64,000 bases of DNA from Alphaproteobacteria bacterium (lineage in GTDB: Bacteria; Pseudomonadota; Alphaproteobacteria; JAAXGF01), in contig CAUVXB020000002.1 in the NCBI GenBank assembly GCA_963555825.3, forward strand, positions 3,456,001 to 3,520,000, read 5' to 3'. Positions 1 to 43,698 of this stretch are shown one piece after another. Position numbers and translations under genes: made by a program. How positions within the stretch are numbered: the first letter of the stretch is position 1; the number at the start of each line of letters is the position of its first letter. Under the pieces are notes generated by a model that was given only the letters and a program-made list of their open reading frames with translations, was not told where the DNA came from and did no database searches.

Positions 1-104
1 TCATTGGAGGTCGATACCGGAAACTGTGCCATCGTGTCGCTCCTTCTGATCGAGGTTGAAATAATCGAAGGAGCTTGAGGCTGCGTCCTTCAGCCTCATA
101 GCAT
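1..104 (-). mobile_element. Left end of an IS110 (IS1111-type) element, continuing out of the window
   Basis: Reverse complement matches 41095-41198 (ATGCTATGAGGCTGAAGGACGC... through the transposase start MAQFPVSTSN). Confidence 0.92.
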
Positions 105-592
105 CTTGTGGACGATCTCGCCGCGATAGATCCGGTTCTGCAACATTAGATAGAGCGCGCCACGAGCGAGCGGCATGCCGCCGGTCCGGCGGCCGTATTT
201 GTCGATGCGGATCTTGCTGACGAACCCGTCTCTGTCGAGCGCTTCCTTGAGTGTACGCACCGAGCCCAGTTCGGCATAGCGGCGGTAGATGTGCCGGACC
301 GTCTCGGCCTCGTGGCGGTTGACCACCAGCTTCCGGTCCGCCGCGTCGTAGCCGAGCGGCGGCAGGCCGCCCATCCACATGCCTTTCTTCTTCGAGGCGG
401 CGATCTTGTCGCGAATGCGCTCGCCGGTGACCTCGCGCTCGAACTGCGCAAAGGACAGCAGCATGTTGAGCGTGAGGCGCCCCATCGAGGTGGTCGTATT
501 GAACTGCTGGGTTACCGAGACGAACGACACACCGCGTGCGTCGAACACCTCGACGATCTTGGCGAAGTCGCCCAATGTCCGTGTCAAGCGGT
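105..592 (-). pseudogene. Large serine recombinase (resolvase + recombinase domain) internal fragment
   Basis: DRLTRTLGDFAKIVEVFD...SFVSVTQQFNTTTSMGRLTLNMLLSFAQFEREVTGERIRDKIAASKKKGMWMGG..PLGYD...NRIYRGEIVHK. The N-terminus is replaced by the rve element and the C-terminal side is interrupted by IS110. Confidence 0.9.
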
Positions 593-1905
593 CCTGTCCC
601 TCCTGAAAACCTCGTACCGCACAGAATCCTTGGTCTTTCCGCCGAACGCCGGATACCTTCTCTGGCATGCCAACGATCGCCTTTCTGCTCCTGGCCACTC
701 TCCGTGACGCTCTCCGCAGCCGCGTAGCGCTTCAGTTGGAAGTCCTTGCGCTACGCCAGCAACTCGCCACGATGAAGCGAATCTCGTCGCGGCCGTCGCT
801 CCGTTCGGCAGATCGTCTGTTCTGGGTGTTGCTCTCTCGGCTTTGGCCAGCTTGGCGGGCCACGCTGGTGATCGTGAAGCCCGAGACGGTCATCACTTGG
901 CACCGCAAGGGATTCCGCTTGTTCTGGACCTGGAAGTCGCGGCGGCGGAGAGGAGGGCGGGCACCGGTTCCGCGCGAGGTTCGCGACCTAATTCGACGGA
1001 TGAGCCGGGAGAACCCGCTCTGGGGCGCTCCCCGAATCCACGGCGAACTGGTGAAACTGGGGATCGAGGTGTCGGAGGCCTCGGTGTCCAAGTACATGGT
1101 GCGCCATCCGAAGCCACCCTCGCAAACCTGGCGGACTTTTCTCCGAAACCATGTGGGCTGTCTCGCATCGATCGACTTCTTCGTGGTGCCCACGGCGGCG
1201 TTCAGTCTCTTCTTCGCCTTCGTCGTGCTCCATCATGATCGCCGGCGGATCGTGCATTTCGCTGTGACGGCAAACCCGACCGCGGCGTGGGTGGCACAGC
1301 AGATCCGCGAAGCCTTCCCGTGGGACACGGCACCACGCCACGTGATCCGGGATCGCGACAGCGTGTACGGCGGCGTGTTTCGTGCTCGCATTTTAGCCAT
1401 GGGCATCGAGGAGGTCGTAACCGCCCCACGGTCGCCTTGGCAGAATCCGTTTGCCGAAAGGGTGATCGGGTCCATCAGGCGAGAGTGCTTGGACCACGTG
1501 ATCGTCCTCAACGAGCGGCACCTGCAGCGAATTCGCACGTCATACCTCGCCTCCTTCCATCGCTCTCGTACATACTTGTCGCTGGGAAAGGACGCACCCA
1601 ACGGGCGACCGGTCCAGCCTGCCGGTGCAAGGAAGATCGTCGCGTTCCCGCAGTTCGGCCGACTGAATCACGGTAACGTACGGCGGGCAGCCTGATCCGA
1701 ACCTACCCGGCTGCGGCGAATCAACATCCTTAGTGCGGATACGGTCAATCGTATGTAGGGACTTGAGCAAACCGGCCGCATTCGACGAAATGGCCTTTAC
1801 CCGTTAGGCGCACGCTCATCAACGTTCGATTTATCCCAGGCGGGCGCATCGAGCAGGCGACCCGGTCCGGGTTATGCGCTATATTGGATTTTCAGGAACG
1901 ACAGG
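593..1905 (+). mobile_element. IS3/IS481-superfamily element with rve integrase core
   Basis: Imperfect IRs CCTGTCCCTCCTGAAAA / TTTTCAGGAACGACAGG enclose the ORF. No TSD is seen. Confidence 0.75.
667..1695 (+). CDS. Integrase-core (rve) transposase, C-terminus appears degenerate
   Basis: WGAPRIHGEL, SIDFF, IRDRD and SPWQNPFAERVIGSIRRECLDH DDE motifs. Confidence 0.85.
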   Translation: MPTIAFLLLATLRDALRSRVALQLEVLALRQQLATMKRISSRPSLRSADRLFWVLLSRLWPAWRATLVIVKPETVITWHRKGFRLFWTWKSRRRRGGRAPVPREVRDLIRRMSRENPLWGAPRIHGELVKLGIEVSEASVSKYMVRHPKPPSQTWRTFLRNHVGCLASIDFFVVPTAAFSLFFAFVVLHHDRRRIVHFAVTANPTAAWVAQQIREAFPWDTAPRHVIRDRDSVYGGVFRARILAMGIEEVVTAPRSPWQNPFAERVIGSIRRECLDHVIVLNERHLQRIRTSYLASFHRSRTYLSLGKDAPNGRPVQPAGARKIVAFPQFGRLNHGNVRRAA

Positions 1906-2585: not shown

Positions 2586-2944
2586 TGTGCCACGCCTGAC
2601 GAGCTTGAGCGGGGCTCAGGTAGCCGTTCTTCTCCACGATCCACTGGGCATTGTACTGTTCGACGAACCCGCGGACGGCGTTCCGCAGCTCCGCGATGTT
2701 GCGGTAGATGCGGCCATGGATGATCTGTTCCTTGAGCGTGCGATTGAACCTCTCGGCGACGCCGTTGGTCTGGGGCTGTTCGACGAAGGCGTAGGACGGC
2801 TGGATGCCCCAGAACTTGATCTGGTTTGAGAACGGCAGAGCAATAATCCCCCACTGAAGCGGCCGGTCGATCCGGCTGCGGCGGACCAAAATGGGACCGC
2901 GTATAGCCTTCTGTCAGGGTTGCTCTGACTGGAAGGCGGGGGGG

Positions 2945-4444
2945 ATGTATCGGGTGGAGTTGTACGCACGGGTTCGGCGGGCGTGTCATGTCGAGGGGAT
3001 GAGCACCCGCGAGGCCTCGCGGGTGTTTGGTGTAGACCGCAAGACGGTCCGTAAGATGCTGTCGTTCTCGGTGCCGCCAGGGTATCGCCGAAGCGCGCCG
3101 CCGAGGCGGCCAAAGCTGGGTCCGTTCACGGGAATCATCGATCGGATCTTGGAAGACGATCGGACCAGCCACCGCAAGCAACGGCACACTGCGAAGCGCA
3201 TCTTCGACCGCCTCCGGGACGAGTACGGTTTCACGGGCGGCTACACCATCGTGAAGGACTACGTTCGTGAGCAGGGGCTTCGGTCGCGTGAGGTGTTCGT
3301 GCCACTCTCCCATTCCCCCGGTCACGCCCAGGCGGACTTCGGCGAAGCGATGGCGGTGATCGGCGGCGCGTTACGGAAGATCCACTTCCTTGCCTTCGAC
3401 CTTCCCCACAGTGATGGTTGCTTTGTTGCGGCCTATCCGGCGGAGACGACCGAAGCATTCTGCGATGGCCACAACGCGGCGTTTGCCTTCTTCGGCGGCG
3501 TCCCCCGATCCATCCTGTACGACAACACCAAGCTGGCGGTTGCCCGGATCCTGGGCGATGGGAAGCGGCAGCGAACGCGCGTCTTCACGGAGCTTCAGTC
3601 CCACTATCTGTTCGAGGACAGGTTCGGCCGGCCGGGCAAGGGCAACGACAAGGGCAAGGTCGAGGGACTGGTCGGCTTCATCCGGCGGAACTTCCTGGTC
3701 CCCGTCCCGCGTGCCGAGAGCTTCGCGGCCCTCAACGATGCTCTCGCCGAACAGTGCCGCCGGCGCCAGGCGGCGCGGCTGCGGGGCCACAAGGAGACCA
3801 TCGGCGAGCGTCTCGAGCGGGATCGTCAAGTTCTCTTGCCATTGCCGCCTGCTCCCTATGATGCCTGCGATAAGCGCCCTGGACGGGCGAGTTCGCTGTC
3901 GCTGGTGCGTTACCGCAGCAACGACTATTCCGTGCCCGTGGCCTACGGCCACCGTGAGGTGCTCATCCGGGGCTACGTCGATGAGGTGGTGATCAGCTGC
4001 GGGGCCGAGGTGATCGCCCGGCACCGCCGGTCCTACGACAGCGAGGACCTGATCTTCGACCCGCTGCATTACCTGCCCTTGATCGAGCAGAAGATCGGCG
4101 CCCTCGACCAGGCCGCGCCATTGGCGGGCTGGGACCTGCCCGAGGCCTTCATCACTCTGCGGCGGCTCCTCGAAGCTCGTATGGGCAAGGCAGGCAAGCG
4201 CGAGTACGTCCAGGTGCTCCGTCTACTGGAGACCTTCCGGCTCGAGGAGGTCGAGGGTGCGGTCGGCGACGCCCTGCGGCTCGGCGCAATCGGCTTTGAT
4301 GCGGTGAAGCACCTGGTACTGTGCCGCATCGAGCGGCGGCCGCCCAGGCTCAACCTCGACGTCTATCCGTATCTGCCGCGCGCCCGGGTCGCGATGACGT
4401 CCGCCAAGTCGTACATGAGCCTGCTGTCGGGGCTCGGCGCATGA
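2945..4444 (+). CDS. istA: IS21 transposase IstA
   Basis: N-terminal HTH, AQADFG, YDNTK and GNDKGKVEGLV motifs. Confidence 0.95.
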   Translation: MYRVELYARVRRACHVEGMSTREASRVFGVDRKTVRKMLSFSVPPGYRRSAPPRRPKLGPFTGIIDRILEDDRTSHRKQRHTAKRIFDRLRDEYGFTGGYTIVKDYVREQGLRSREVFVPLSHSPGHAQADFGEAMAVIGGALRKIHFLAFDLPHSDGCFVAAYPAETTEAFCDGHNAAFAFFGGVPRSILYDNTKLAVARILGDGKRQRTRVFTELQSHYLFEDRFGRPGKGNDKGKVEGLVGFIRRNFLVPVPRAESFAALNDALAEQCRRRQAARLRGHKETIGERLERDRQVLLPLPPAPYDACDKRPGRASSLSLVRYRSNDYSVPVAYGHREVLIRGYVDEVVISCGAEVIARHRRSYDSEDLIFDPLHYLPLIEQKIGALDQAAPLAGWDLPEAFITLRRLLEARMGKAGKREYVQVLRLLETFRLEEVEGAVGDALRLGAIGFDAVKHLVLCRIERRPPRLNLDVYPYLPRARVAMTSAKSYMSLLSGLGA

Positions 4445-5205
4445 CCGACACACCGCAAGTGCTGCTCGCCCACCACCTCAAGACGCTGAAGCTGCCGACC
4501 TTCCTGCGCGAGTACGACAAGATCGCCCGGCAGTGCGCCTCGGAAGGCGTCGATCACGTCCGCTACCTGTTGAGACTCGCCGAGCTCGAGCTGATCGACC
4601 GCGAGCGCCGCATGGTCGAGCGGCGCATCAAGGCGGCGCGCTTCCCCGTGGTCAAGAGCCTCGACAGCTTCGACTTCAAGGTCATCCCCTCGCTCAACAA
4701 GGCGCTGGTCCTGGAGCTGGCCCGCTGCGAGTACATCGAGCGCCGCGAGAACCTCATCGCGCTCGGCAACAGTGGGACCGGCAAGACCCACATCGCCCTC
4801 GGTCTCGGCCTGGCGGCCTGCCAGAAGGGCCTCTCGGTCGGCTTCATCACCGCCGCCGCGCTGGTCCACGAACTCATCGAGGCCCGCGATGACAAGCAGC
4901 TGCTGAGGTTCCAGAAGAAGCTCGCCACCTACAAGCTTCTGATCGTCGACGAACTCGGCTTCGTGCCGCTGTCGAAGACCGGCGCCGAGCTGTTGTTCGA
5001 GGTGTTCAGCCAACGCTACGAGCGGGGCTCGACCCTGGTCACCACCAATCTGCCCTTCGACGAATGGACCGAGGTGTTCGGCTCCGAGCGCCTCACCGGC
5101 GCGCTCCTCGATCGCCTCACCCACCACGTCAACATCCTCGAGATGAACGGTGACAGCTACAGGCTCAACCAGAGCCGCAGGCGTCAAACCCCGACTGCTA
5201 ACTGA
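4441..5205 (+). CDS. istB: IS21 helper AAA+ ATPase IstB
   Basis: Walker A GNSGTGKT, Walker B LLIVDELG, LLDRLTHH. ATGA overlap with istA. Confidence 0.95.
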   Translation: MTDTPQVLLAHHLKTLKLPTFLREYDKIARQCASEGVDHVRYLLRLAELELIDRERRMVERRIKAARFPVVKSLDSFDFKVIPSLNKALVLELARCEYIERRENLIALGNSGTGKTHIALGLGLAACQKGLSVGFITAAALVHELIEARDDKQLLRFQKKLATYKLLIVDELGFVPLSKTGAELLFEVFSQRYERGSTLVTTNLPFDEWTEVFGSERLTGALLDRLTHHVNILEMNGDSYRLNQSRRRQTPTAN

Positions 5206-5358
5206 ACCGACCACCCAGCCCACGCTTGACCCCGTGGGCCCACAGGTCCCTCCCGCGCGCGCCGCCGCGTCAGCCTGTTGAGGGCACGCCGCGTCGCGCG
5301 CGGGGCCCTCCCGTGGACTACGGGGACAAGCCCGCAGCCGCCAAGCGGTCCCTTCTTA

Positions 5359-6533
5359 TATCAGTGAGCCTATGAAATCACCTTCATGATCCATGGATAG
5401 GCGCAGAGGGTTCGCATACGATCCGGTTCTGCGATGAGGTCGATCCATGCTTGGCAACAGGCGTCGATGATGGCCTCGGTGTCGTCGAGGACGCGGAGCG
5501 ATAGGAAGCGTTCGCGTAGGTAGAGCCAAACCCGCTCGACGGGGTTGAGTTCGGGACTGTAAGGCGGCAACAGCGCCAAGGTGACGTTGTCGGGGACGGT
5601 GAGGGCGCGCTCGTCGTGCCAACCGGCGCCGTCGCACATCATGACGGCGTGCGCATCCTGGTCCAGGGTATCGGCGAAGTGTGCGAGAAACAGGTCCATG
5701 ACCTTGGCGTTGACGCTCGGCATCACCAGGGTGACGTCGTCGCCGGTGTCCGGGCGCACGGCGGAGAAGATGTAGGCCCACTGGTAGCCGATTTGACGCG
5801 TCCCGGGGGCACGCTCGCCCCTGCGCCACCACCGGTGACACACCCGGCCCTTGTTGCCGACGCGCGCTTCATCCTGAAACCACAGCTGTAGGCGCTTGTC
5901 GGGATGCGCCGCGGCGGTCGCCTTCAGGATGTCGCGAAGCCCCCTTTTTTGAAGCGCTCCTGCGCTTCGGCGTCCCTTCGCGGGTGGCTCGGGCGCGCCT
6001 TCTGGCGGGAAAATCCCATCCGCCGTAGAACCCGGGTCATGCTCGAGGGGTGGTAGGTCTTGGCGAAGCGCTCCTCCAGCCAGCGGCACAGATCGGCCCG
6101 GGTCCAGGCGCAAACCCCGTCGCGCTCAGGCTCCGGCCCGGCGATGATGACCGCCGCCAGCGCCGCTTCCTCGTCTGCCGTCAGCCGCCGCGGCGAGTAG
6201 CCCTTTGGACGGTCGTGAAGCCCCTCCAATCCCTTTGCATTGTAACGAACAACCGCGTCGCGAAGCGTTTGGCGATCCATCCCCGCAAGCCGCGCGGCAT
6301 CAGCCCGGGGCATCTCCTCCAAAGCATTCGCGATCCCATAGGCCCGCGCCGCCGCTCGACCGTACGATTCCACGCGAGCCCAGCGCCGAAGCTCCAAAGG
6401 CGTCAAATCATCCCGTATCTTGAGTGCTGATCCCATGACATCCCCCACATCTGGTGGGAGACCATAGAATCACAATCCGCCATCATCCGCCATCAATGAA
6501 TATCCCGAGAGTCAATTCAGGCGCTCACTGGTA
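5359..6533 (-). mobile_element. IS630 family element; orfA 5924-6448 and orfB ending at 5370, probably joined by -1 frameshift
   Basis: TA-flanked IRs (TCAGTGAGCC.. / ..GCTCACTGG). Slippery AAAAAAGGGG on the minus strand at 5941-5950. FQDEAR, DGAGWH and LPPYSPELNPVE motifs. Confidence 0.9.
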
Positions 6534-31055: not shown

Positions 31056-32416
31056 GTTCTCTAACTCGGGGGTTGGTTGTCAAGCTCTCCGTGACGTACC
31101 TGCCGGGTTCACTGTTCTCTCCGCGGTAGGGGCTCGGCCCTCCGCATGATGGCGTTGGAGGACGTTGGCGGATCAATGTGTGAAGCGCGCTTGCCTCGGT
31201 GAGGCATCGCAAAGCCTGGATCGATCTCGCCGACGCCGCCGTCCCGACAGGGACATCGGTTCCGCTCTCGCGGAATGCTTGGACGTTGTTTCCCTATGCG
31301 GCCGCCTCCTTGGTTGACCAGATGAAGTCCGTTCCATCACGCCACATGCGATGGAGGATGACCGCCAGCTTCCGTGCCACGGCGATCTTGGCCTTCTTGA
31401 AGCCGATGCGTTTCCACAACCTGTGACCCCAGGCCTTGAGCGCGCACCATCGCGGCACCCGGGTGAGCAGCACGCCGGCCGCCTCGAAGAGGTAGGTCCT
31501 GAGCATTCGATCGCCGCATTTGGAGATCCGCCCCGTCCAATCGACCTCGCCGGAAGCATGGCGGCGCGGCGTCAGCCCGATGTACGCGCCGACACTCCGG
31601 GAACGTCGGAAGCGGCTCGGCTCGTCGATCGCCGAGTGGAAGGCCAAGGCGGTGATCGGCCCGATGCCTGGAACCGTCATGGAACGTCTGCTGTCCTCGT
31701 CGTTCCGCGCCAGGCCCAGCAGCTTGCGATAGAGCGCGGCGATCTCTCGGCCGACCTTCTCGCGGACTTCCAGAAGGGGCCGAACGGCCTCCGACAAAAG
31801 ACCCTGCCCGCCAAGCAGCTCTTCGACCCGGCGACGGAAGACATTGCCGCCCGCCTTGCCGATGACGAGGCCGAGGTTCTTGAGCAAGCCACGGATCTGG
31901 TTCTCGAGATCACGCTTGATCTTGACCAACTGGGCCCGGCTGTTCAGGACGGCCCGTATCTCGTGGCACGCCACGCTCGACTTGGACCTCCTTGTACCAA
32001 CCGCACTGCATGACCCGCGCGATCCCGGCGGCATCGTTCCGGTCGCTCTTGTTGATCTGCATCGACAGCGCCGCCTTGGCATGACGCGCATCGATGCAGA
32101 TCACCGGCAAGCCGAGCGCCCTGAGCTCATGCCACAGCCAGGTCGTCGTCGGACCGGTCTCCAGACCGATGCGCTTTGCGTGCGGCGCCGTTGTCCTGAT
32201 ATACGCCGCGATTGCCGCCGGCTCCGAGATCACCACGCCCTCGGACACGATCTCGCCGTTGTCATCGACCACGCAGATCGAGGTCTCCTTGAGCGATACA
32301 TCCATTCCAACATACAGTTCCATAGCTGCTCTCCTGCTCTTTCAGTGTGCTCGCCCGGCCCATGCCGGTCGTTGCTACATTAAGGAGAGCAGTGCCCGAT
32401 CCCCGAGTTACGCCAT
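31056..32416 (-). mobile_element. IS110 family (IS1111-type) element; transposase 31294-32323 frameshifted near 31975
   Basis: Subterminal IRs TAACTCGGGG / CCCCGAGTTA. Motifs YVGMDVS, GLETG, KSDRNDA, VPGIGP, GLTP...SG and ARKLAVILH. Confidence 0.9.
31084..31290 (-). ncRNA. Putative bridge/seek RNA of the IS110 at 31056-32416
   Basis: Noncoding region 3' of the transposase containing four segments that match the target flanks and the donor junction (see findings). Confidence 0.7.
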
Positions 32417-39284: not shown

Positions 39285-39400
39285 ACGTCCTTCCTGGTTT
39301 TCTTGTTATCGATTTTCGAACGTCATGGTCGCGCTATCAGGTCGGCAAGTCGAGTCCACGGTCGGCCTTTTGCTCCGTGCCCCAATGACCGCTTTGGGTC

Positions 39401-41085
39401 CAGCCTGTGTGAGAACGTTTGCTGCTATTTCTGTGTGGCGCGTCTTTGGGTTTGGATGATCAGTCGGGACGTGTTTTCCGGGATTATGGATTTTCGCCGC
39501 TCGTGCGGGCTTTTCGGCCGGCTGGCGCCGTTGTGAGCCGCGATGTGGCCGGGTATGGGCGTAATTGTCGGCGCAGGGGCGCTATGCCGTCCTGATCGCC
39601 GCGATCAGCGGGTCGATGCCCATGATGTTCATGACGCGCTTGAGATTGTAGGCCAGCACGTGCAAGGCCATCTCGGTCCTCACCCGCTTCAGCGTCTTCA
39701 TCTGGAAGTGCGTCGCGCCCATCCAGGCCTTGAGGGTGCCGAAGGGATGCTCGGCCGTCTCGCGCCGCCGACGCATCGCCTCCGGGTGCTCGTCGAGCCG
39801 CCTCTCGACGGCCTCGAGAATGTGTTCGTGCTGCCAACGGGTGATGCGGTGCTGCTTGGCCGTGGTGCAGCGATGCTTGATGGCGCATCCCTGACAGGCG
39901 TTGGTCCAGTAGCGCCGCATGCTCAGCCCCCTCTCCTGGCTGGTGAAGCGGTAGACCAAACGCTCGCCGGCCGGGCAGCGATAGACATCGTCGGCGGCCA
40001 GATAGACGAAGTCCTGTTTGCCGAAGCGGCCCCTGGCCTTGGCTCCAGAGGTCAGCGGCTTAGGCAACGTGACGGTGATGCCGGCCTGATCGCAGGCCAG
40101 AATCTCCTTGCCGTTGTAGTAGCCGCGATCGGCAACGACATCCAGCTCGTCGGTCTCCAGAGCCGCCTTGGTCTGCTTGGCCATGGCTGAGAGTTGCGCG
40201 CGGTCAGTGCCCTGATTGGTCACCTCGTGGGCGACGATCAGGTGATGCTTGGTGTCGACGGCGGCCTGAACGTTGTAGCCCACCACGCCGGAACCCCGGC
40301 CGCTCGTCGCCATCGAGCGGGCATCGGGATCGCTCAGAGAGACCTGCTGGTCCGGGCTCGCACGCCTCTCGACTTCAAGCGCCTTCAGGCGCCGCATCTC
40401 CTCCTTGAGGATCGCAATCTTGTCGGCCAGACGAGTCGTCTTGGTCGTGCGCGCCAGCGACGGCTCTTGCCGGTCGGCGCTGTCGAGTTGCTGCAGATAG
40501 CGCGCAACGCTCTCCTCGATCTGCGCCACCCGCCGCGCCATCTTGGCCCGCGTGAAGTTCCTGTCCCGGCTGTTGACCGCCTTGAACTTGGCGCCATCGA
40601 TCGCCACGCTCGCCTCGGCAAACAGCCCCAGTTGGCGGCACAGGGCGATGAACTGGGCACAGACCTGGCGGATCGCAGAACCATTGTCCTTGGCCGAAGT
40701 CGGCGATCGTCTTGTGATCCGGCGCCAGCCGGCCGACCAGCCACATCACTTCCACATTGCGCCCGGCCTCCCTCTCGAGCCGACGGCTCGACTGAACCCG
40801 GTTGAGATAGCCGTAGATGTAGAGCTTCAACAAATCGCAAGGATGATAGGCCGGCCGGCCGGTCGCCAGCGGCGCGACCCGGTCGAACCCCAGACCACCA
40901 AGATCGAGCTCATCGACGAAGACGTCGATCGCCCGAACCGGGTTGTCCTCGCCGATCCAGTCTTCCAGGCGCTCGGGAAACAACGTGCCCTGGCTGCGAT
41001 CGACACCCTCCACAAAACGCTTCATCAGACCCTCCCGCCAAAGCACAAGAGAATCATAACACCATCGACGTTTTCACACAGGCTG
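39401..41085 (-). mobile_element. IS1182 family element, copy 2; transposase 39582-41025 frameshifted near 40693
   Basis: IRs CAGCCTGTGTGA / TCACACAGGCTG and TSD GGTC. Two overlapping partial ORFs. Confidence 0.92.
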
Positions 41086-41166
41086 GGTCACAAGATGCTA
41101 TGAGGCTGAAGGACGCAGCCTCAAGCTCCTTCGATTATTTCAACCTCGATCAGAAGGAGCGACACG

Positions 41167-42300
41167 ATGGCACAGTTTCCGGTATCGACCTCCAATGAAC
41201 ACGCTATTTATGCGGCACTGGAGTTGAGCAAGAACAGCTGGCTTTTGGCGATCCAGGCTCCGGGGCGGGGCAATCCGAGCTTGCATCCGATCAAGGGCGG
41301 CGACGCTGAAGGACTGATGGCCAAGCTGGACGCGGCGCGGGACCGGGTGGTCAAGGTGACGGGTCGAACGCCGACGATAACGCTGTGCTACGAGGCCGGC
41401 TACGACGGCTTCTGGTTGGCGCGGTTCCTCGAGCAGCGCGGCATCGAGTGTCTGGTCATGGAGCCGGCCAGCTTGCGGGTCAACCGCCGGGCGCGGCGGG
41501 TGAAGACCGACCGCATCGATGTCGAGAATATTCTTCATACGCTGATCGCCTGGTGCCGCGGCGAGCGTCATGTCTGCTCCATGGTGGTGATTCCGAGCGT
41601 CGCGGAGGAGGACCTTCGCCGCTCTCATCGGGAACGTGACCGATTGGTCCGCGAGCGAACCGCCCACATCAACCGGATCAAGGGTCTGCTATTCGGTCAG
41701 GGCATTCGCGGCATCAATGTCAAGGCGCGCTACAAGACCTTGACACCGGCGGCGCTGGTCACCGGAGACGGCCGACCCCTGCCGGACCGTCTCGGCCGCG
41801 AGATCGCGCGGGAGATCGCGAGACTGGCCCAGGTCCAAGCGCAGATCGTCGAGGTCGAGCGTGAGCGTGATCAAGCGCCGACACCGTGTGTGGCCACGGA
41901 AAGCAAGCGTCACCAGCTGCTGCGCTTAAAGGGCCTCGGCCCGGCCTTATCCACGACGCTCGCACGGGAAGTCTATTATCGCCAGTTCGCCAATCGCCGA
42001 CAGGTGGCAAGCTATATCGGGATCACGCCCAGTGCCTATGACAGCGGCGACGGGCGCCGCAGCCAAGGCATCTCCAAGGCGGGCAATCGGCTGGCACGGG
42101 TTGCCATGATCGAAGCCGCATGGCTTTGGGTCCGCCATCAACCCGATAGCGCTCTGACCCAGTGGTTCCATGACCGCACCCAAGGTCAGAAGGGGCGCAT
42201 CAGGCGCGTCATGATCGTCGCCCTGGCCCGCAAACTGGCGATCGCGCTTTGGCGGTATCTGGAAACCGGGCTGATCCCGGTGGGTGCTGTCGTCAAATAG
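41167..42300 (+). CDS. IS110 recombinase/transposase
   Basis: ALELSK, CYEAG, KTDRID, GITP..YDSG, GISKAGN, ALARKLAIALWR. Confidence 0.93.
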   Translation: MAQFPVSTSNEHAIYAALELSKNSWLLAIQAPGRGNPSLHPIKGGDAEGLMAKLDAARDRVVKVTGRTPTITLCYEAGYDGFWLARFLEQRGIECLVMEPASLRVNRRARRVKTDRIDVENILHTLIAWCRGERHVCSMVVIPSVAEEDLRRSHRERDRLVRERTAHINRIKGLLFGQGIRGINVKARYKTLTPAALVTGDGRPLPDRLGREIAREIARLAQVQAQIVEVERERDQAPTPCVATESKRHQLLRLKGLGPALSTTLAREVYYRQFANRRQVASYIGITPSAYDSGDGRRSQGISKAGNRLARVAMIEAAWLWVRHQPDSALTQWFHDRTQGQKGRIRRVMIVALARKLAIALWRYLETGLIPVGAVVK

Positions 42301-42309
42301 GACTGCGGA

Positions 42310-42590
42310 TCAGCTCAGCGTTCTAACGGGCTTCATTCCCCGATGGGAACGCTTGTTGGCAGGTTGGATGTGTGACTGCATGTCTCCTTGGCGAAGGTGC
42401 CGTCCACAAGATTAGTCCCATCCCCGTCCTGTGATGGTCCATGTATACAGCATTGTGGCAAGCCGGATCGGAGCTGCCGGATATAAGGTGATGCGATCAC
42501 TCGCACGAAACATGGAACTCATCGCAAGACCCGCCCTGGATACAAAGCCATAACCAATGGAAGAGACGATCATGTGGCGTAGATTAAATC
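42310..42590 (+). ncRNA. Putative bridge/seek RNA of the IS110 at 41095-42618
   Basis: Contains ATGTCTCCTTG (42380-42390) and CGTCCACAAG (42401-42410), which match target flanks, and ATATAAG (42481-42487), which matches the donor end. Confidence 0.75.
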
Positions 42591-42618
42591 CACCTTGACA
42601 GCAAACGCCTCATATAAG

Positions 42619-42780
42619 GAGACATTGGCGGAGGCGGCGTGCGATGTCCGCTTCGGAGCGGTAACCAGACCTAAAAGCCCCATTGCCAAATTTCACGATA
42701 CTCGCGTCTGCTTTCGAACAGAGAGCGGTCCTCGCAGCGTCACTCGCCCAAGGTCAGCCTGTCGCCGGGACCCGACATTC
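42619..42780. repeat. Four-unit palindromic repeat cluster (first unit begins 39384; split by IS1182 and IS110)
   Basis: Units at 42646, 42706 and 42753, colinear with 36261-36420. Confidence 0.8.
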
Positions 42781-42905
42781 GAGAGTCCGCAAAAATGTTA
42801 CCCGTGTACGTCCATCGATGGCGCGACGACCCTATTATCACGCCCATCCTCCCGGTCAACCTGGCGGGTCGCAGCTTCAAGGCGACCGAATGCGGCGTGA
42901 CCCGA

Positions 42906-42969
42906 GCCGGGTTTTCGCATGGCCGGGTTTTCGCATGGCCGGGTTTTCGCATGGCCGAGTTTTCGCATG
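42906..42969. repeat. 16-bp tandem repeat x4
   Basis: GCCGGGTTTTCGCATG three times plus GCCGAGTTTTCGCATG. Confidence 0.95.
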
Positions 42970-43108
42970 GATGGTCACAAAATGGTCACGACTCAGTCAA
43001 TACGGGTCGATATGGATCATGACGGGACGGGCGTGAGAACCCATAATAATGGCGGATTCCCGGACGATGCAGCACGGTCCGAGACGGACCAATACGGCTT
43101 GAATGGAA

Positions 43109-43139
43109 TTTCGAGACCGCCCCGTTCGACCACGCCGGC
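43109..43139 (-). other. tRNA-Ser(CGA) 5'-half fragment; probable att-site remnant
   Basis: Minus strand GCCGGCGTGGTCGAACGGGGCGGTCTCGAAA (D-arm to anticodon loop). No 3' half is present. Confidence 0.55.
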
Positions 43140-43698
43140 GGCCCGCCGCCGAGAGCGGCGGTCGCGTTTCCGCCGCGCGTCTCGAGTGTGTCGGTCGAGC
43201 CCGTCGAGGGCGGTGCCGTCGCCGATGGTCCTAGATGTTAATCGCCCCGTCGATAAAGGCTCTGGCGCACTGAGGGTACGGGTTTGGTAAAGCGTTAATG
43301 CGCTAGTAAGATGCATTGCGAATCAATCTTGCGCTCTGACGATCTTCGCAAACGTTTCCACGCAACCAAAACCCAAGCCGGCCCATAGGTATGGCTATTG
43401 CCAAACGGCAATCATCGGCCAGGTGCGGTCGGTCGAGTCTGCTACCCTCAGGGCCGGTTTAGGATCAGAAAGCGGTCGATTAAGGTTCACCGCGCAGACG
43501 GTGAAAGTTGACCCGAAGCCGAATTTTCTGGGTTGGCGGCAGGTATGAGGAATTGTGGCTTGCGTGAGCTAGCGATCGATCACTGCGCCGTCCCAGGGCG
43601 CCAAGTTATGATCAAGGAGCCGCTTCCATCGTTCTAGACAGCAAGAATTCTCACAGGTAGCCAATCCGTCCGAAGGCGTTTGCAGATTGCAGCTTGAC

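What the first reader, a model, noticed from the sequence alone, without database searches (positions are those of the whole stretch)
42370..42495. Bridge/seek RNA guides of the IS110 can be read directly and explain both insertion sites in the window
Seen: the noncoding region after the transposase has ATGTCTCCTTG (42380-42390), a small GGC..GCC hairpin, then CGTCCACAAG (42401-42410). The first is the exact reverse complement of CAAG|GAGACAT, the reconstructed empty site at 41091-41094/42619-42625. The second matches 10/10 the flank of the other copy at 105-114 (minus strand CGTCCACAAG) and 6 nt (CACAAG) of this copy's left flank. AGCAT (42449) and ATATAAG (42481) match the donor junction CATATAAG|ATGCT. 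Established: IS110/IS1111 recombinases use such target- and donor-binding loops. Inference: the programmed target is about GTCCACAAGGAGACAT with an AAG/AG core, which overlaps one arm of the palindromic unit. The transposase looks intact, so this is a candidate programmable recombinase.
Basis: partly seen in the sequence, partly recalled or inferred. Interest (0 to 1): 0.75.

Follow-up and report, generated by a model that had tools for sequence, protein, structure and literature searches.

The report
Guide RNA of an IS110-family element
The non-coding tail of this insertion sequence carries short guide segments that match its own insertion sites and its own ends, as in the known RNA-guided IS1111/IS110 elements, so it is a correct reading of an ordinary new member of a known kind.

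Summary
The element is window 41095-42618 (1524 bp; 377-aa IS110-family transposase). The genome holds 11 identical full copies.

In the 318-nt region after the gene, 42380-42389 (ATGTCTCCTT) is complementary to the top strand of core plus right flank. 42402-42410 (GTCCACAAG) repeats left flank plus core. A small hairpin separates them, and a covarying stem encloses both.

Five distinct full-copy sites give the target YCACA-AG-GAGAC(A). Uninterrupted CACAAGGAGAC sites exist. The far flank of the second window copy is GAGACGA, so 5 of the 7 predicted bases match.

In relatives at 49-89% protein identity both segments change together with the flanks (permutation test, 0 of 20000). AGCAT and ATATAAG change together with the element's own ends.

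The order (top-strand match 5' of bottom-strand match), the 3' location and the 8-bp subterminal inverted repeats fit the published IS1111-type seekRNA/bridge RNA. The RNA itself, its binding to the protein and its programmability were not shown here.

Refinements: the core is AG, and G42390 and C42401 belong to the hairpin. Subgroup membership is open: the protein is 377 aa, and Glu replaces the first Asp of the DEDD tetrad.

Verdict: new member of a known kind, modest interest.

The parts
41095..42618 (+). Whole insertion sequence, 1524 bp (ATGCT...CATATAAG). The terminal AG/AAG is the core shared with the left flank.
   Evidence: 11 full copies at 100% identity in the genome. Boundaries come from the flanks of all copies and from uninterrupted sites.
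41086..41094 (+). Left half of the target at this copy (GGTCACAAG); core AG at 41093-41094.
41099..41106 (+). Left subterminal inverted repeat, TATGAGGC.
   Evidence: pair I14. Conserved in relatives.
41167..42300 (+). Transposase/recombinase gene, 377 aa. Acidic tetrad E19, E76, D115, D118; S293-G294 motif.
   Evidence: Pfam PF01548 and PF02371. Residues invariant in 20 of 20 aligned relatives. Fold matches ISCro4 and IS621 recombinases. hhalign to an IS4321 transposase, probability 98.5%.
42358..42535 (+). Predicted seekRNA/bridge RNA, closed by stem P1 (42358-42364 with 42529-42535).
   Evidence: Alignment A1 of 26 relatives. 86.0% of cells paired against 32.9-44.5% when the partners are slid.
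42367..42422 (+). Target-binding arm. Stem P2 (42367-42377 with 42414-42422) encloses both target guides.
   Evidence: 6 of 8 pairs show changes on both sides; 97.1% of cells paired.
42380..42389 (+). Guide T (ATGTCTCCTT): complementary to the top strand of AAG plus GAGACAT, that is core plus right target.
   Evidence: pair I11. Covaries with the right flank in relatives.
42390..42401 (+). Hairpin P3 (GGCG-AAGG-UGCC) between the two target guides.
   Evidence: helix 3, 86.5% of cells paired; one pair with a compensatory change
42402..42410 (+). Guide B (GTCCACAAG): same sense as left target plus core, so complementary to the bottom strand.
   Evidence: Covaries with the left flank in relatives.
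42431..42525 (+). Donor-binding arm. Stem P4 (42431-42443 with 42511-42525) closes a three-way junction with hairpins P5 (42456-42479) and P6 (42492-42505).
   Evidence: helices 4-6. P5 is nearly invariant, so it neither supports nor contradicts the structure.
42449..42453 (+). Right-donor guide AGCAT, complementary to the first five bases of the element (ATGCT).
   Evidence: Covaries with the left end in relatives: ATGCT/AGCAT, ATCCT/AGGAT, ATTCC/GGAAT.
42481..42487 (+). Left-donor guide ATATAAG, same sense as the last seven bases of the element.
   Evidence: Relatives whose right end is ...ATATGAG carry ATATGAG here.
42595..42600 (+). TTGACA, an outward-facing -35-like hexamer near the right end.
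   Evidence: Conserved in close relatives. On the computed circle junction it lies 17 nt before GATGCT, 9 of 12 matches. Inference only.
42607..42614 (+). Right subterminal inverted repeat, GCCTCATA.
   Evidence: pair I14
42619..42625 (+). Right half of the target at this copy (GAGACAT).
1..104 (-). Left end of a second, identical copy that runs off the window.
   Evidence: (L002)
105..114 (-). Left flank of the second copy (CGTCCACAAG on the minus strand).
3787..3799 (+). Unoccupied target CCACAAG-GAGACC inside the first gene of an IS21-like element.

Best explanation
Window 41095-42618 is an active IS110-family insertion sequence with the IS1111-type layout: a short left end, the transposase gene, and a long 3' non-coding region that encodes a seekRNA/bridge RNA of about 180 nt (42358-42535).

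In the first arm of the RNA, an internal loop carries two guides. [quoted passage not shown] The two pairings overlap on the AG core.

The second arm is a three-way junction. It carries AGCAT and ATATAAG, which recognise the joined ends of the excised circle (...CATATAAG|ATGCT...) in the same top-then-bottom order.

The recombinase bound to this RNA would bring the circle junction and the target together and exchange strands at the core. That gives simple insertion without target duplication.

Shown here: the sequence complementarity, the insertion sites, the uninterrupted sites, the conserved secondary structure, and the joint change of guides with flanks and with ends among relatives.

Inferred from the family: that the region acts as RNA bound to the recombinase, the circular intermediate, the strand-exchange chemistry, and programmability.
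For: Copies and sites
- 11 full copies are 100% identical.
- There are five distinct full-copy sites and one partial site. All have a left flank ending (C/T)(A/T)(C/T)AAG and a right flank starting GAGAC.
- Uninterrupted sites read CACAAGGAGAC, with the core present once: 77 occurrences in the genome. 69 of them sit in one IS21-like repeat, and one is a paralogue of an occupied site.

Guide matches
- The two guide segments are the longest matches between any target and the element.
- Close relatives show compensating changes. L022 has ATGTCCGCTT with AAG|CGGACAT; L027 has AACGTCCGCTT with CGGACGTT. For the left flank, L024 has GGTAGAG, L027 GGTAAAG, L034 CCCTGAG and L035 CCGCGAG.
- Of 50 relative loci with both ends assigned, 28 have an exact match of 7 nt or more to the right flank at offset 40-105 of the non-coding region. 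23 have one to the left flank at offset 60-120. 10 have both, and in 9 of those 10 the top-strand match comes first.
- For 21 non-redundant targets, own-flank matches sum to 254. Permuted pairings give 188.9 +/- 6.3 with a maximum of 220, and 0 of 20000 permutations reach 254.
- The donor guides follow the ends: ATGCT/AGCAT, ATCCT/AGGAT, ATTCC/GGAAT, and TATAAG versus TATGAG.

Structure of the RNA
- 45 pairs; 86.0% of cells paired against 32.9-44.5% when slid. The covariation score is 0.244 against 0.040-0.071, and 0 of 500 shuffles reach it. The stem enclosing the target loop has 6 of 8 pairs with changes on both sides.

Protein
- Pfam PF01548 and PF02371.
- AlphaFold model with mean pLDDT 81.6. 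The top 10 Foldseek hits are ISCro4 and IS621 recombinase-RNA-DNA complexes, E 2.7e-11 to 7e-10.
- S293-G294 and the acidic tetrad are invariant in 20 of 20 aligned relatives.

Literature
- In IS1111-type seekRNAs the top-strand match lies 5' of the bottom-strand match, and the two overlap in the target (PMC11187229, sections 9 and 12).
- The bridge RNA sits in the right end in IS1111 elements, and their donor nucleotides are often in a multi-loop (PMC11208160, passages).
Against: - No direct evidence of the RNA. Single-sequence folding is no better than shuffles (z -0.05 and 0.11).
- No Rfam family matches at E up to 1.
- No sigma-70-like promoter or terminator lies inside the element.
- The RNA-library contigs that cover the region cannot show a small RNA or its ends, and no circle junction was seen in them.
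- 9 of 50 relative loci show neither guide match at 7 nt or more. Some of these may reflect my automatic end assignment: L029's left end was misassigned.
- L034 has no clean top-strand match. L043, L046 and L052 carry AGGAT although their left end reads ATGCT.
- The window copy's own left flank matches only 6 nt.
- 7 of the 11 full copies share one context, the IS21-like repeat. They count as one independent site and could have spread with that repeat.
- The first catalytic residue is Glu, not Asp.
Confidence: 0.9

Rival explanations
1. The mechanism is the same, but the element is not a member of the IS1111 clade proper. It would belong to a separate IS110-family lineage that also carries its RNA downstream, as Siddiquee et al. 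describe for some IS110-type elements.
For: - The transposase is 377 aa. That is outside the 330-350 aa given for IS1111 transposases and inside the 345-385 aa given for the ISEc21 cluster (PMC11187229, section 6).
- Its motif is GITPSAYDSG, with I where the IS1111 logo has L.
- It is only 24% identical to an IS4321 transposase.
- The same paper says some IS110-type elements have a 3' non-coding region.
Against: - It has an 8-bp subterminal inverted repeat 4 nt from each end.
- It has the 3' RNA and the IS1111 order of guides.
- hhalign to IS4321 covers residues 8-366.
- No tree was built, so neither placement has been tested.
Confidence: 0.35
2. The protein recognises the target directly, or recognises DNA secondary structure at palindromic sites. 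The matching segments in the non-coding region would be fossil copies of the target, for example picked up by past recombination, with no guiding role.
For: - Targets of several relatives are palindromes. In L025 the left arm of the palindrome equals the T segment.
- The RNA was not observed.
Against: - Fossil copies would not stay matched to both strands, in one fixed place inside a covarying stem, across relatives at 49-89% identity with different targets.
- Four of the five distinct sites in this genome are not palindromes.
- The family's RNA dependence has been shown experimentally (PMC11187229, sections 8-12).
Confidence: 0.05
3. The matches are chance.
For: Short matches are common: 8-nt inverted repeats occur 35 times inside the element. 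The 10-mer with one mismatch is not enriched in the window.
Against: - The two matches are the longest of all, are adjacent, and flank a hairpin.
- For the 11-mer, 0 of 100 shuffles reach the observed count.
- Own flanks against other flanks gives 0 of 20000 permutations.
Confidence: 0.01

Closest known systems
IS1111-type seekRNA elements ISEc11, ISPa11 and ISKpn4 (Siddiquee et al. 2024, PMC11187229; sections 6, 8, 9, 10, 12, 13 read)
   Same: - The long non-coding region lies downstream of the transposase gene, and the element has subterminal inverted repeats.
[quoted passage not shown] The top-strand match is 5' and the two overlap at the insertion point.
- Close relatives are naturally redirected by changes in the guides: ISEc11/ISXne4 there, the window element/L022 here.
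- There is no target duplication.
   Different: - The transposase is 377 aa, against 330-350 aa.
- Glu stands at the first catalytic position.
- No RNA or transposition data exist for this element.
- I could not see the paper's supplementary trees, which may already include this clade.
IS621 bridge RNA and recombinase (Durrant et al. 2024, PMC11208160, passages read; structures 8wt6 and 8wt9)
   Same: - The recombinase fold is the same.
- There are two RNA arms, one for the target and one for the donor. Each reads both strands, and the pairings overlap on a dinucleotide core.
- The guide lengths are similar.
   Different: [quoted passage not shown] Here the RNA is in the right end and the order is reversed.
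- The core is AG here rather than CT.
- The donor nucleotides sit in a three-way junction, which Durrant et al. note for many IS1111 orthologues.
- Sequence identity is about 20%.
ISEc21 (IS110 type), which inserts in a conserved stretch of IS3-family transposase genes (PMC11187229, section 12)
   Same: Its preferred target lies inside another insertion sequence. Here that is the first gene of an IS21-like repeat, with 69 identical-context empty sites and 10 occupied or partly occupied ones.
   Different: ISEc21 has its RNA upstream and the opposite guide order.
IS4321/IS5075 (IS1111 family)
   Same: The transposases are homologous (hhalign probability 98.5%). [quoted passage not shown] The window copy lies in the terminal inverted repeat of an IS1182-like element.
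   Different: 24% identity, and a different target and host range.

Membership tests
IS110-family RNA-guided (bridge/seek) recombinase elements | Transposase with the DEDD_Tnp_IS110 (PF01548) and Transposase_20 (PF02371) domains | tested here: met
   PF02371 at E 1.6e-16 and PF01548 at E 1.1e-09, both above their cut-offs.
IS110-family RNA-guided (bridge/seek) recombinase elements | Fold like the solved bridge recombinases | tested here: met
   AlphaFold model with pLDDT 81.6. The top Foldseek hits are ISCro4 (9t56) and IS621 (8wt6, 8wt9), E 2.7e-11 to 7e-10, TM 0.47-0.63.
IS110-family RNA-guided (bridge/seek) recombinase elements | DEDD catalytic tetrad | tested here: inconclusive
   E19, E76, D115 and D118 are invariant in 20 of 20 relatives. 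E19 aligns with the Asp of GIDLGK in an IS4321 transposase. All four positions are acidic, but the first is Glu.
IS110-family RNA-guided (bridge/seek) recombinase elements | Conserved Ser-Gly in a G--P----SG motif of the C-terminal domain | tested here: met
   GITPSAYDSG, with S293 and G294 invariant. It aligns with the TG of IS4321.
IS110-family RNA-guided (bridge/seek) recombinase elements | Site-specific insertion without target duplication; a core shared by target and donor | tested here: met
   Occupied sites read CACAAG|IS...TATAAG|GAGAC. Empty sites read CACAAGGAGAC.
IS110-family RNA-guided (bridge/seek) recombinase elements | Non-coding region with segments complementary to both strands of the target and of the donor, covarying with them | tested here: met
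   structure.
IS110-family RNA-guided (bridge/seek) recombinase elements | The region is made as RNA, binds the recombinase and is needed for transposition | not testable with these tools
   Contigs from RNA libraries cover the region but cannot show a transcript.
IS1111 group | The longer non-coding region lies downstream of the transposase gene | tested here: met
   The left end is 72 nt and the right end 318 nt.
IS1111 group | Subterminal inverted repeats of 7-17 bp | tested here: met
   TATGAGGC and GCCTCATA, 8 bp, 4 nt from each end. Conserved in relatives. The range is from PMC11208160.
IS1111 group | The top-strand match lies 5' of the bottom-strand match in the RNA | tested here: met
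   42380-42389 comes before 42402-42410. The same order holds in 9 of 10 relatives that have both matches.
IS1111 group | Transposase of 330-350 aa that clusters with IS1111 | tested here: not met
   The protein is 377 aa. Clustering was not tested because no tree was built. It is 24% identical to IS4321.
Rfam RNA families | Match to a curated covariance model | tested here: not met
   0 matches at E up to 1 in 40500-43500.

The most novel reading that the evidence does not exclude
This alphaproteobacterial clade is a separate lineage of bridge/seek recombinases. Its features are a 377-aa recombinase, Glu in place of the first catalytic Asp, a 3' RNA with the IS1111 guide order, and donor guides in a three-way junction. 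On this reading its natural guides are tuned to other mobile elements: the first gene of a 70-copy IS21-like repeat and the terminal repeats of IS1182-like elements. It would then act as a parasite of other insertion sequences and disable them.
Probability: 0.2. Interest if true: 0.45.

Novelty: new member of a known kind. Interest (0 to 1): 0.3.

Why it matters
The finding shows that the target and donor guides of an uncharacterised IS110-family element can be read from sequence alone, and checked against the element's own copies and relatives.

It also gives a well-defined candidate for bench work. The recombinase is intact, 11 identical copies point to recent activity, the target is about 16 bp (GTCCACA-AG-GAGACAT), and the RNA structure is mapped with natural redirected variants at 76-89% protein identity.

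The mechanism itself has been known since 2024, so the value is as an additional orthologue, not a new principle.

Tried and rejected
- Single-sequence folding of 42301-42618 and 42340-42520 gave z-scores of -0.05 and 0.11, which is uninformative. The structure came from the alignment of relatives instead.
- The Rfam scan found nothing.
- The promoter and terminator scan of 41000-42720 found nothing. The circle-junction promoter (TTGACA, 17 nt, GATGCT) has only 3 of 6 in its second hexamer, so it would fail that tool's own criterion. I keep it as an inference.
- Sequencing runs: four metatranscriptome runs from one study hold contigs of the element, including the non-coding region. They are contigs, DNA may be present in them, no transcript ends or levels can be read, and no circle junction was listed. 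I draw no conclusion on expression from them.
- An inverted-repeat search of the right flank, 42600-42720, found none with a seed of 6.
- A protein search of plasmids gave only generic 'IS110 family transposase' names for relatives at 57% identity or less. The large protein search gave at least 7995 homologues, again with generic names. No named ISfinder element was identified. ISfinder is not among the tools.
- No tree was built to place the clade in IS1111 or IS110.
- Supplementary figures and tables of PMC11187229 and PMC11208160 (trees, lists of predicted bridge RNAs) were closed. They may already include this element or clade.

Full report
**What is in the sequence**

ATGTCTCCTTG is at 42380-42390, ggcgaaggtgcc at 42390-42401, CGTCCACAAG at 42401-42410, AGCAT at 42449-42453 and ATATAAG at 42481-42487. 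The flank bases caag lie at 41091-41094 and gagacat at 42619-42625.

Window 1-104 is the left end of a second copy on the minus strand. Its flank at 105-114 reads CGTCCACAAG on that strand.

The gene at 41167-42300 encodes a 377-aa protein with Pfam PF01548 and PF02371.

**The element and its sites**

A search of the window's own genome with 41095-42618 found 11 full-length copies at 100% identity, plus truncated ones. The flanks fix the boundaries as ATGCT...CATATAAG, 1524 bp.

Seven full copies and three partial ones share identical flanks of at least 40 nt (ggggccacaag| and |gagaccatcgg). The other four full copies have different flanks:
- ggtcacaag|gagacat (window copy)
- cgtccacaag|gagacga (copy at the window edge)
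- catcacaag|gagacat
- gccataag|gagacat

A truncated copy has ggctacaag on its left. That makes five distinct full-copy sites and one partial site, with consensus (C)CACA-AG-GAGAC(A).

It reads GAGACGA, so 5 of 7 bases match.

CACAAGGAGAC occurs 77 times in the genome without the element:
- 69 lie in one identical context.
- 4 lie in one variant context of the same repeat, and 1 in another.
- 1 is a paralogue of one of the occupied sites.
- 2 are unrelated.

The core therefore occurs once in empty sites and at both junctions in occupied ones. This is insertion without target duplication.

The 69-copy context is a repeat of about 2.6 kb. Its two genes carry Mu-transposase C-terminal/rve and IstB_IS21 domains. 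One empty copy is in the window, at 3787-3799.

**More than chance**

Five reconstructed targets were compared with the whole element on both strands. The matches at 42380-42390 (11 nt) and 42401-42410 (10 nt) are the longest, and everything else is 7-9 nt.

In the window the exact strings occur only at the guide and at the flanks. The one-mismatch count of the 11-mer exceeds all 100 shuffles. That of the 10-mer does not: 20 of 100 shuffles reach it.

**Relatives**

A scan of one genome per species returned 80 loci whose transposases are 49-89% identical to this one. Alignments of the region after the gene and of the left end show two things. The ends (ATGCTATGAGG and CTCATATAAG) and most of the 3' region are conserved. 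The two guide segments differ, and they differ in step with the flanks.

Top-strand guide against right flank:

| Locus | Guide | Right flank | Note |
|---|---|---|---|
| L022 | GAATGTCCGCTT | AAG\|CGGACATTC | |
| L025, L030 | ATGTCCGCTT | CGGACAT | |
| L027 | AACGTCCGCTT | CGGACGTT | |
| L029 | GAAGGTCCGCTT | CAGACCTTC | one mismatch |
| L028 | ACGGTAGCTT | CTGCCGT | one G-U |
| L031, L033 | CGAAACCC | GGGTTTCG | |
| L035 | AAACCGC | GCGGTTT | |

Bottom-strand guide and left flank share these exact strings: L024 GGTAGAG, L025 CCAAAAG, L027 GGTAAAG, L034 CCCTGAG, L035 CCGCGAG. L031 has TTGTGTAG against TTGTGAAG.

I assigned both ends automatically in 50 loci:
- 28 have an exact match of 7 nt or more to the right flank at offset 40-105 of the non-coding region.
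- 23 have one to the left flank at offset 60-120.
- 10 have both. In 9 of those 10 the top-strand match comes first. The exception, L082, matches a conserved stem strand.
- 9 have neither.

I then reduced the set to 21 targets that differ from each other at more than 4 of 16 positions. Own-flank matches sum to 254. Random re-pairing gives 188.9 +/- 6.3 with a maximum of 220, and 0 of 20000 permutations reach 254.

Caveats: the relatives share ancestry, some ends are misassigned (L029's left end), and L034 has no clean top-strand match.

**Donor guides**

AGCAT is the complement of the element's first five bases. ATATAAG equals its last seven. A conserved hairpin lies between them. In relatives the pairs move together:
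- Left end ATGCT goes with AGCAT.
- ATCCT goes with AGGAT (L039, L040, L042, L045, L047).
- ATTCC goes with GGAAT (L089, L092, L097).
- Right end ...ATATGAG goes with ATATGAG (L058, L089 group).

Of 38 non-identical loci, 11 have both strings exact with 15-45 nt between them. With one mismatch allowed in each string, the search returned a hit in 21 more and none in 6. Some of the one-mismatch hits are not at the homologous place.

Exceptions: L043, L046 and L052 have AGGAT with a left end that I read as ATGCT. L031 and L033 have AGCAG, and L034 has AGAAT.

**Secondary structure**

RNAalifold on 26 relatives and a hand-completed structure give these elements:
- P1: 42358-42364 with 42529-42535
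- P2: 42367-42377 with 42414-42422
- P3 hairpin: 42390-42401
- P4: 42431-43 with 42511-25
- P5 hairpin: 42456-42479
- P6 hairpin: 42492-42505

Across 45 pairs, 86.0% of cells pair, against 32.9-44.5% when partners are slid by 1-3 columns. The covariation score is 0.244 against 0.040-0.071, and 0 of 500 shuffles reach the observed value.

P2 encloses both target guides. Six of its 8 pairs change on both sides and 97.1% of cells pair. P5 is almost invariant and so says nothing either way. P1 and P4 pair in 74.2% of cells.

G42390 pairs with C42401 in P3, and G42402 is nearly invariant.

Left flanks in relatives end in AAG, GAG, TAG or CAG, so the conserved core is AG.

**Comparison with the literature**

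Siddiquee et al. report that in IS1111-type elements:
- The seekRNA comes from the downstream non-coding region and co-purifies with the transposase.
- It holds a top-strand match 5' of a bottom-strand match, and the two overlap in the target.
- The order is reversed in the IS110-type ISEc21.
- They also describe natural redirection between close relatives, and a promoter formed only at the circle junction.

These points are from PMC11187229, sections 6, 8, 9, 10, 12 and 13.

Durrant et al. report three relevant points (PMC11208160, passages):
- IS1111 elements have long right ends that hold the bridge RNA, and subterminal inverted repeats of 7-17 bp.
- The donor nucleotides of IS1111 elements often lie in a multi-loop.

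The window element has all of these IS1111 features. They include an 8-bp subterminal repeat 4 nt from each end and donor guides in a three-way junction.

**The protein**

An AlphaFold model built from 20 relatives has mean pLDDT 81.6. Its best structural matches are the ISCro4 and IS621 recombinases in their RNA-DNA complexes. Sequence search of solved structures finds the same two proteins.

A profile comparison with an annotated IS4321 transposase (L102) has probability 98.5% and 24% identity over residues 8-366. In that alignment:
- E19 aligns with the Asp of GIDLGK.
- E76 aligns with Glu.
- D115 and D118 align with the two Asp.
- S293-G294 align with the TG motif.

All five positions are invariant in the 20 aligned relatives. 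The clade thus has Glu at the first catalytic position.

At 377 aa the protein is longer than the 330-350 aa quoted for IS1111 transposases. I did not build a tree, so subgroup membership stays open.

**What was not shown**

No RNA was observed. Rfam has no matching family. Single-sequence folding is uninformative. No promoter or terminator consensus lies inside the element.

On the computed circle junction, TTGACA (42595-42600) lies 17 nt before GATGCT, 9 of 12 matches. This is weak and remains an inference.

Four metatranscriptome runs from one study contain contigs covering the element and its non-coding region. Contigs cannot show transcripts, and no circle junction appeared.

**Verdict**

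The element is an ordinary but well-documented new member of the RNA-guided IS110/IS1111 kind. The family is very large: at least 7995 homologues at E of 1e-20 or better. Interest is modest. Its main use is as a defined candidate orthologue with natural guide variants.

Noticed in passing
window about 2730-5380 (genes 2891-4444 and 4321-5205, + strand); target at 3787-3799: An IS21-like element (IstB_IS21 at 238.6 bits; Mu-transposase C-terminal domain and a weak rve hit) is present about 70 times in the genome. Its first gene contains the element's target CCACAAGGAGACC. 69 identical-context copies are empty. 7 full and 3 partial copies of the IS110-family element sit at this site.
   Followed up: partly
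window 39400-41094 and 42619-42630: The window copy lies in the outer part of the terminal inverted repeat of an IS1182-like element. That element has DUF772 and DDE_Tnp_1_6 domains, with its frame split over two ORFs, and inverted repeats at 39400-39418 and 41068-41086. Three other places in the genome carry homologous ends running ...CTGG.C...AAG..GACATTGG(C/A)G, and one of them holds AAGGAGACAT unoccupied. Right flanks of relatives L025 and L030 (CGGACATTGGCG) look like the same kind of end.
   Followed up: partly
transposase residue 19 (window 41221-41223): Glu stands where IS110-family transposases have the first Asp of the DEDD tetrad. It is invariant in 20 of 20 relatives at 49-89% identity and aligns with the Asp of an IS4321 transposase.
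   Followed up: partly
window 105-600 (- strand) and the genome beyond the window's left edge: The second copy interrupts an open reading frame that continues across the reconstructed site. The 165-aa part inside the window has no Pfam match.
   Followed up: partly
L025 and L030 left and right flanks; L026 left flank: In several relatives the target is a short palindrome, for example ATGTCCGCTTT-ACCCCCA-AAAG|CGGACAT. Its left arm is identical to the element's own top-strand guide, so the guide would compete with the hairpin's own arm.
   Followed up: no
window 32260-32320 (- strand): The stretch around CAAGGAGACCT reads by eye like the N-terminus of another IS110-family transposase (GMDVSLKETSICVVDD). 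Not tested with any tool.
   Followed up: no
genome C1:1251402-1251634 (L015) and C2:3337150-3337743 (L014, L021): There is an orphan right-end fragment, 88% identical, that starts inside the top-strand guide and lies at the IS21-like site. There are also degenerate pieces of a related element at 81% identity.
   Followed up: no
window 42410-42413: The bottom-strand guide is followed by AT in most close relatives. AT equals the first two bases of the element, so the segment also matches the occupied left junction (CACAAG|AT). The top-strand guide's CTT likewise matches the AAG that ends the element. This could serve recognition of the integrated element for excision. The pattern does not hold in all relatives (L024 TT, L038 CT, L037 AC).
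   Followed up: no
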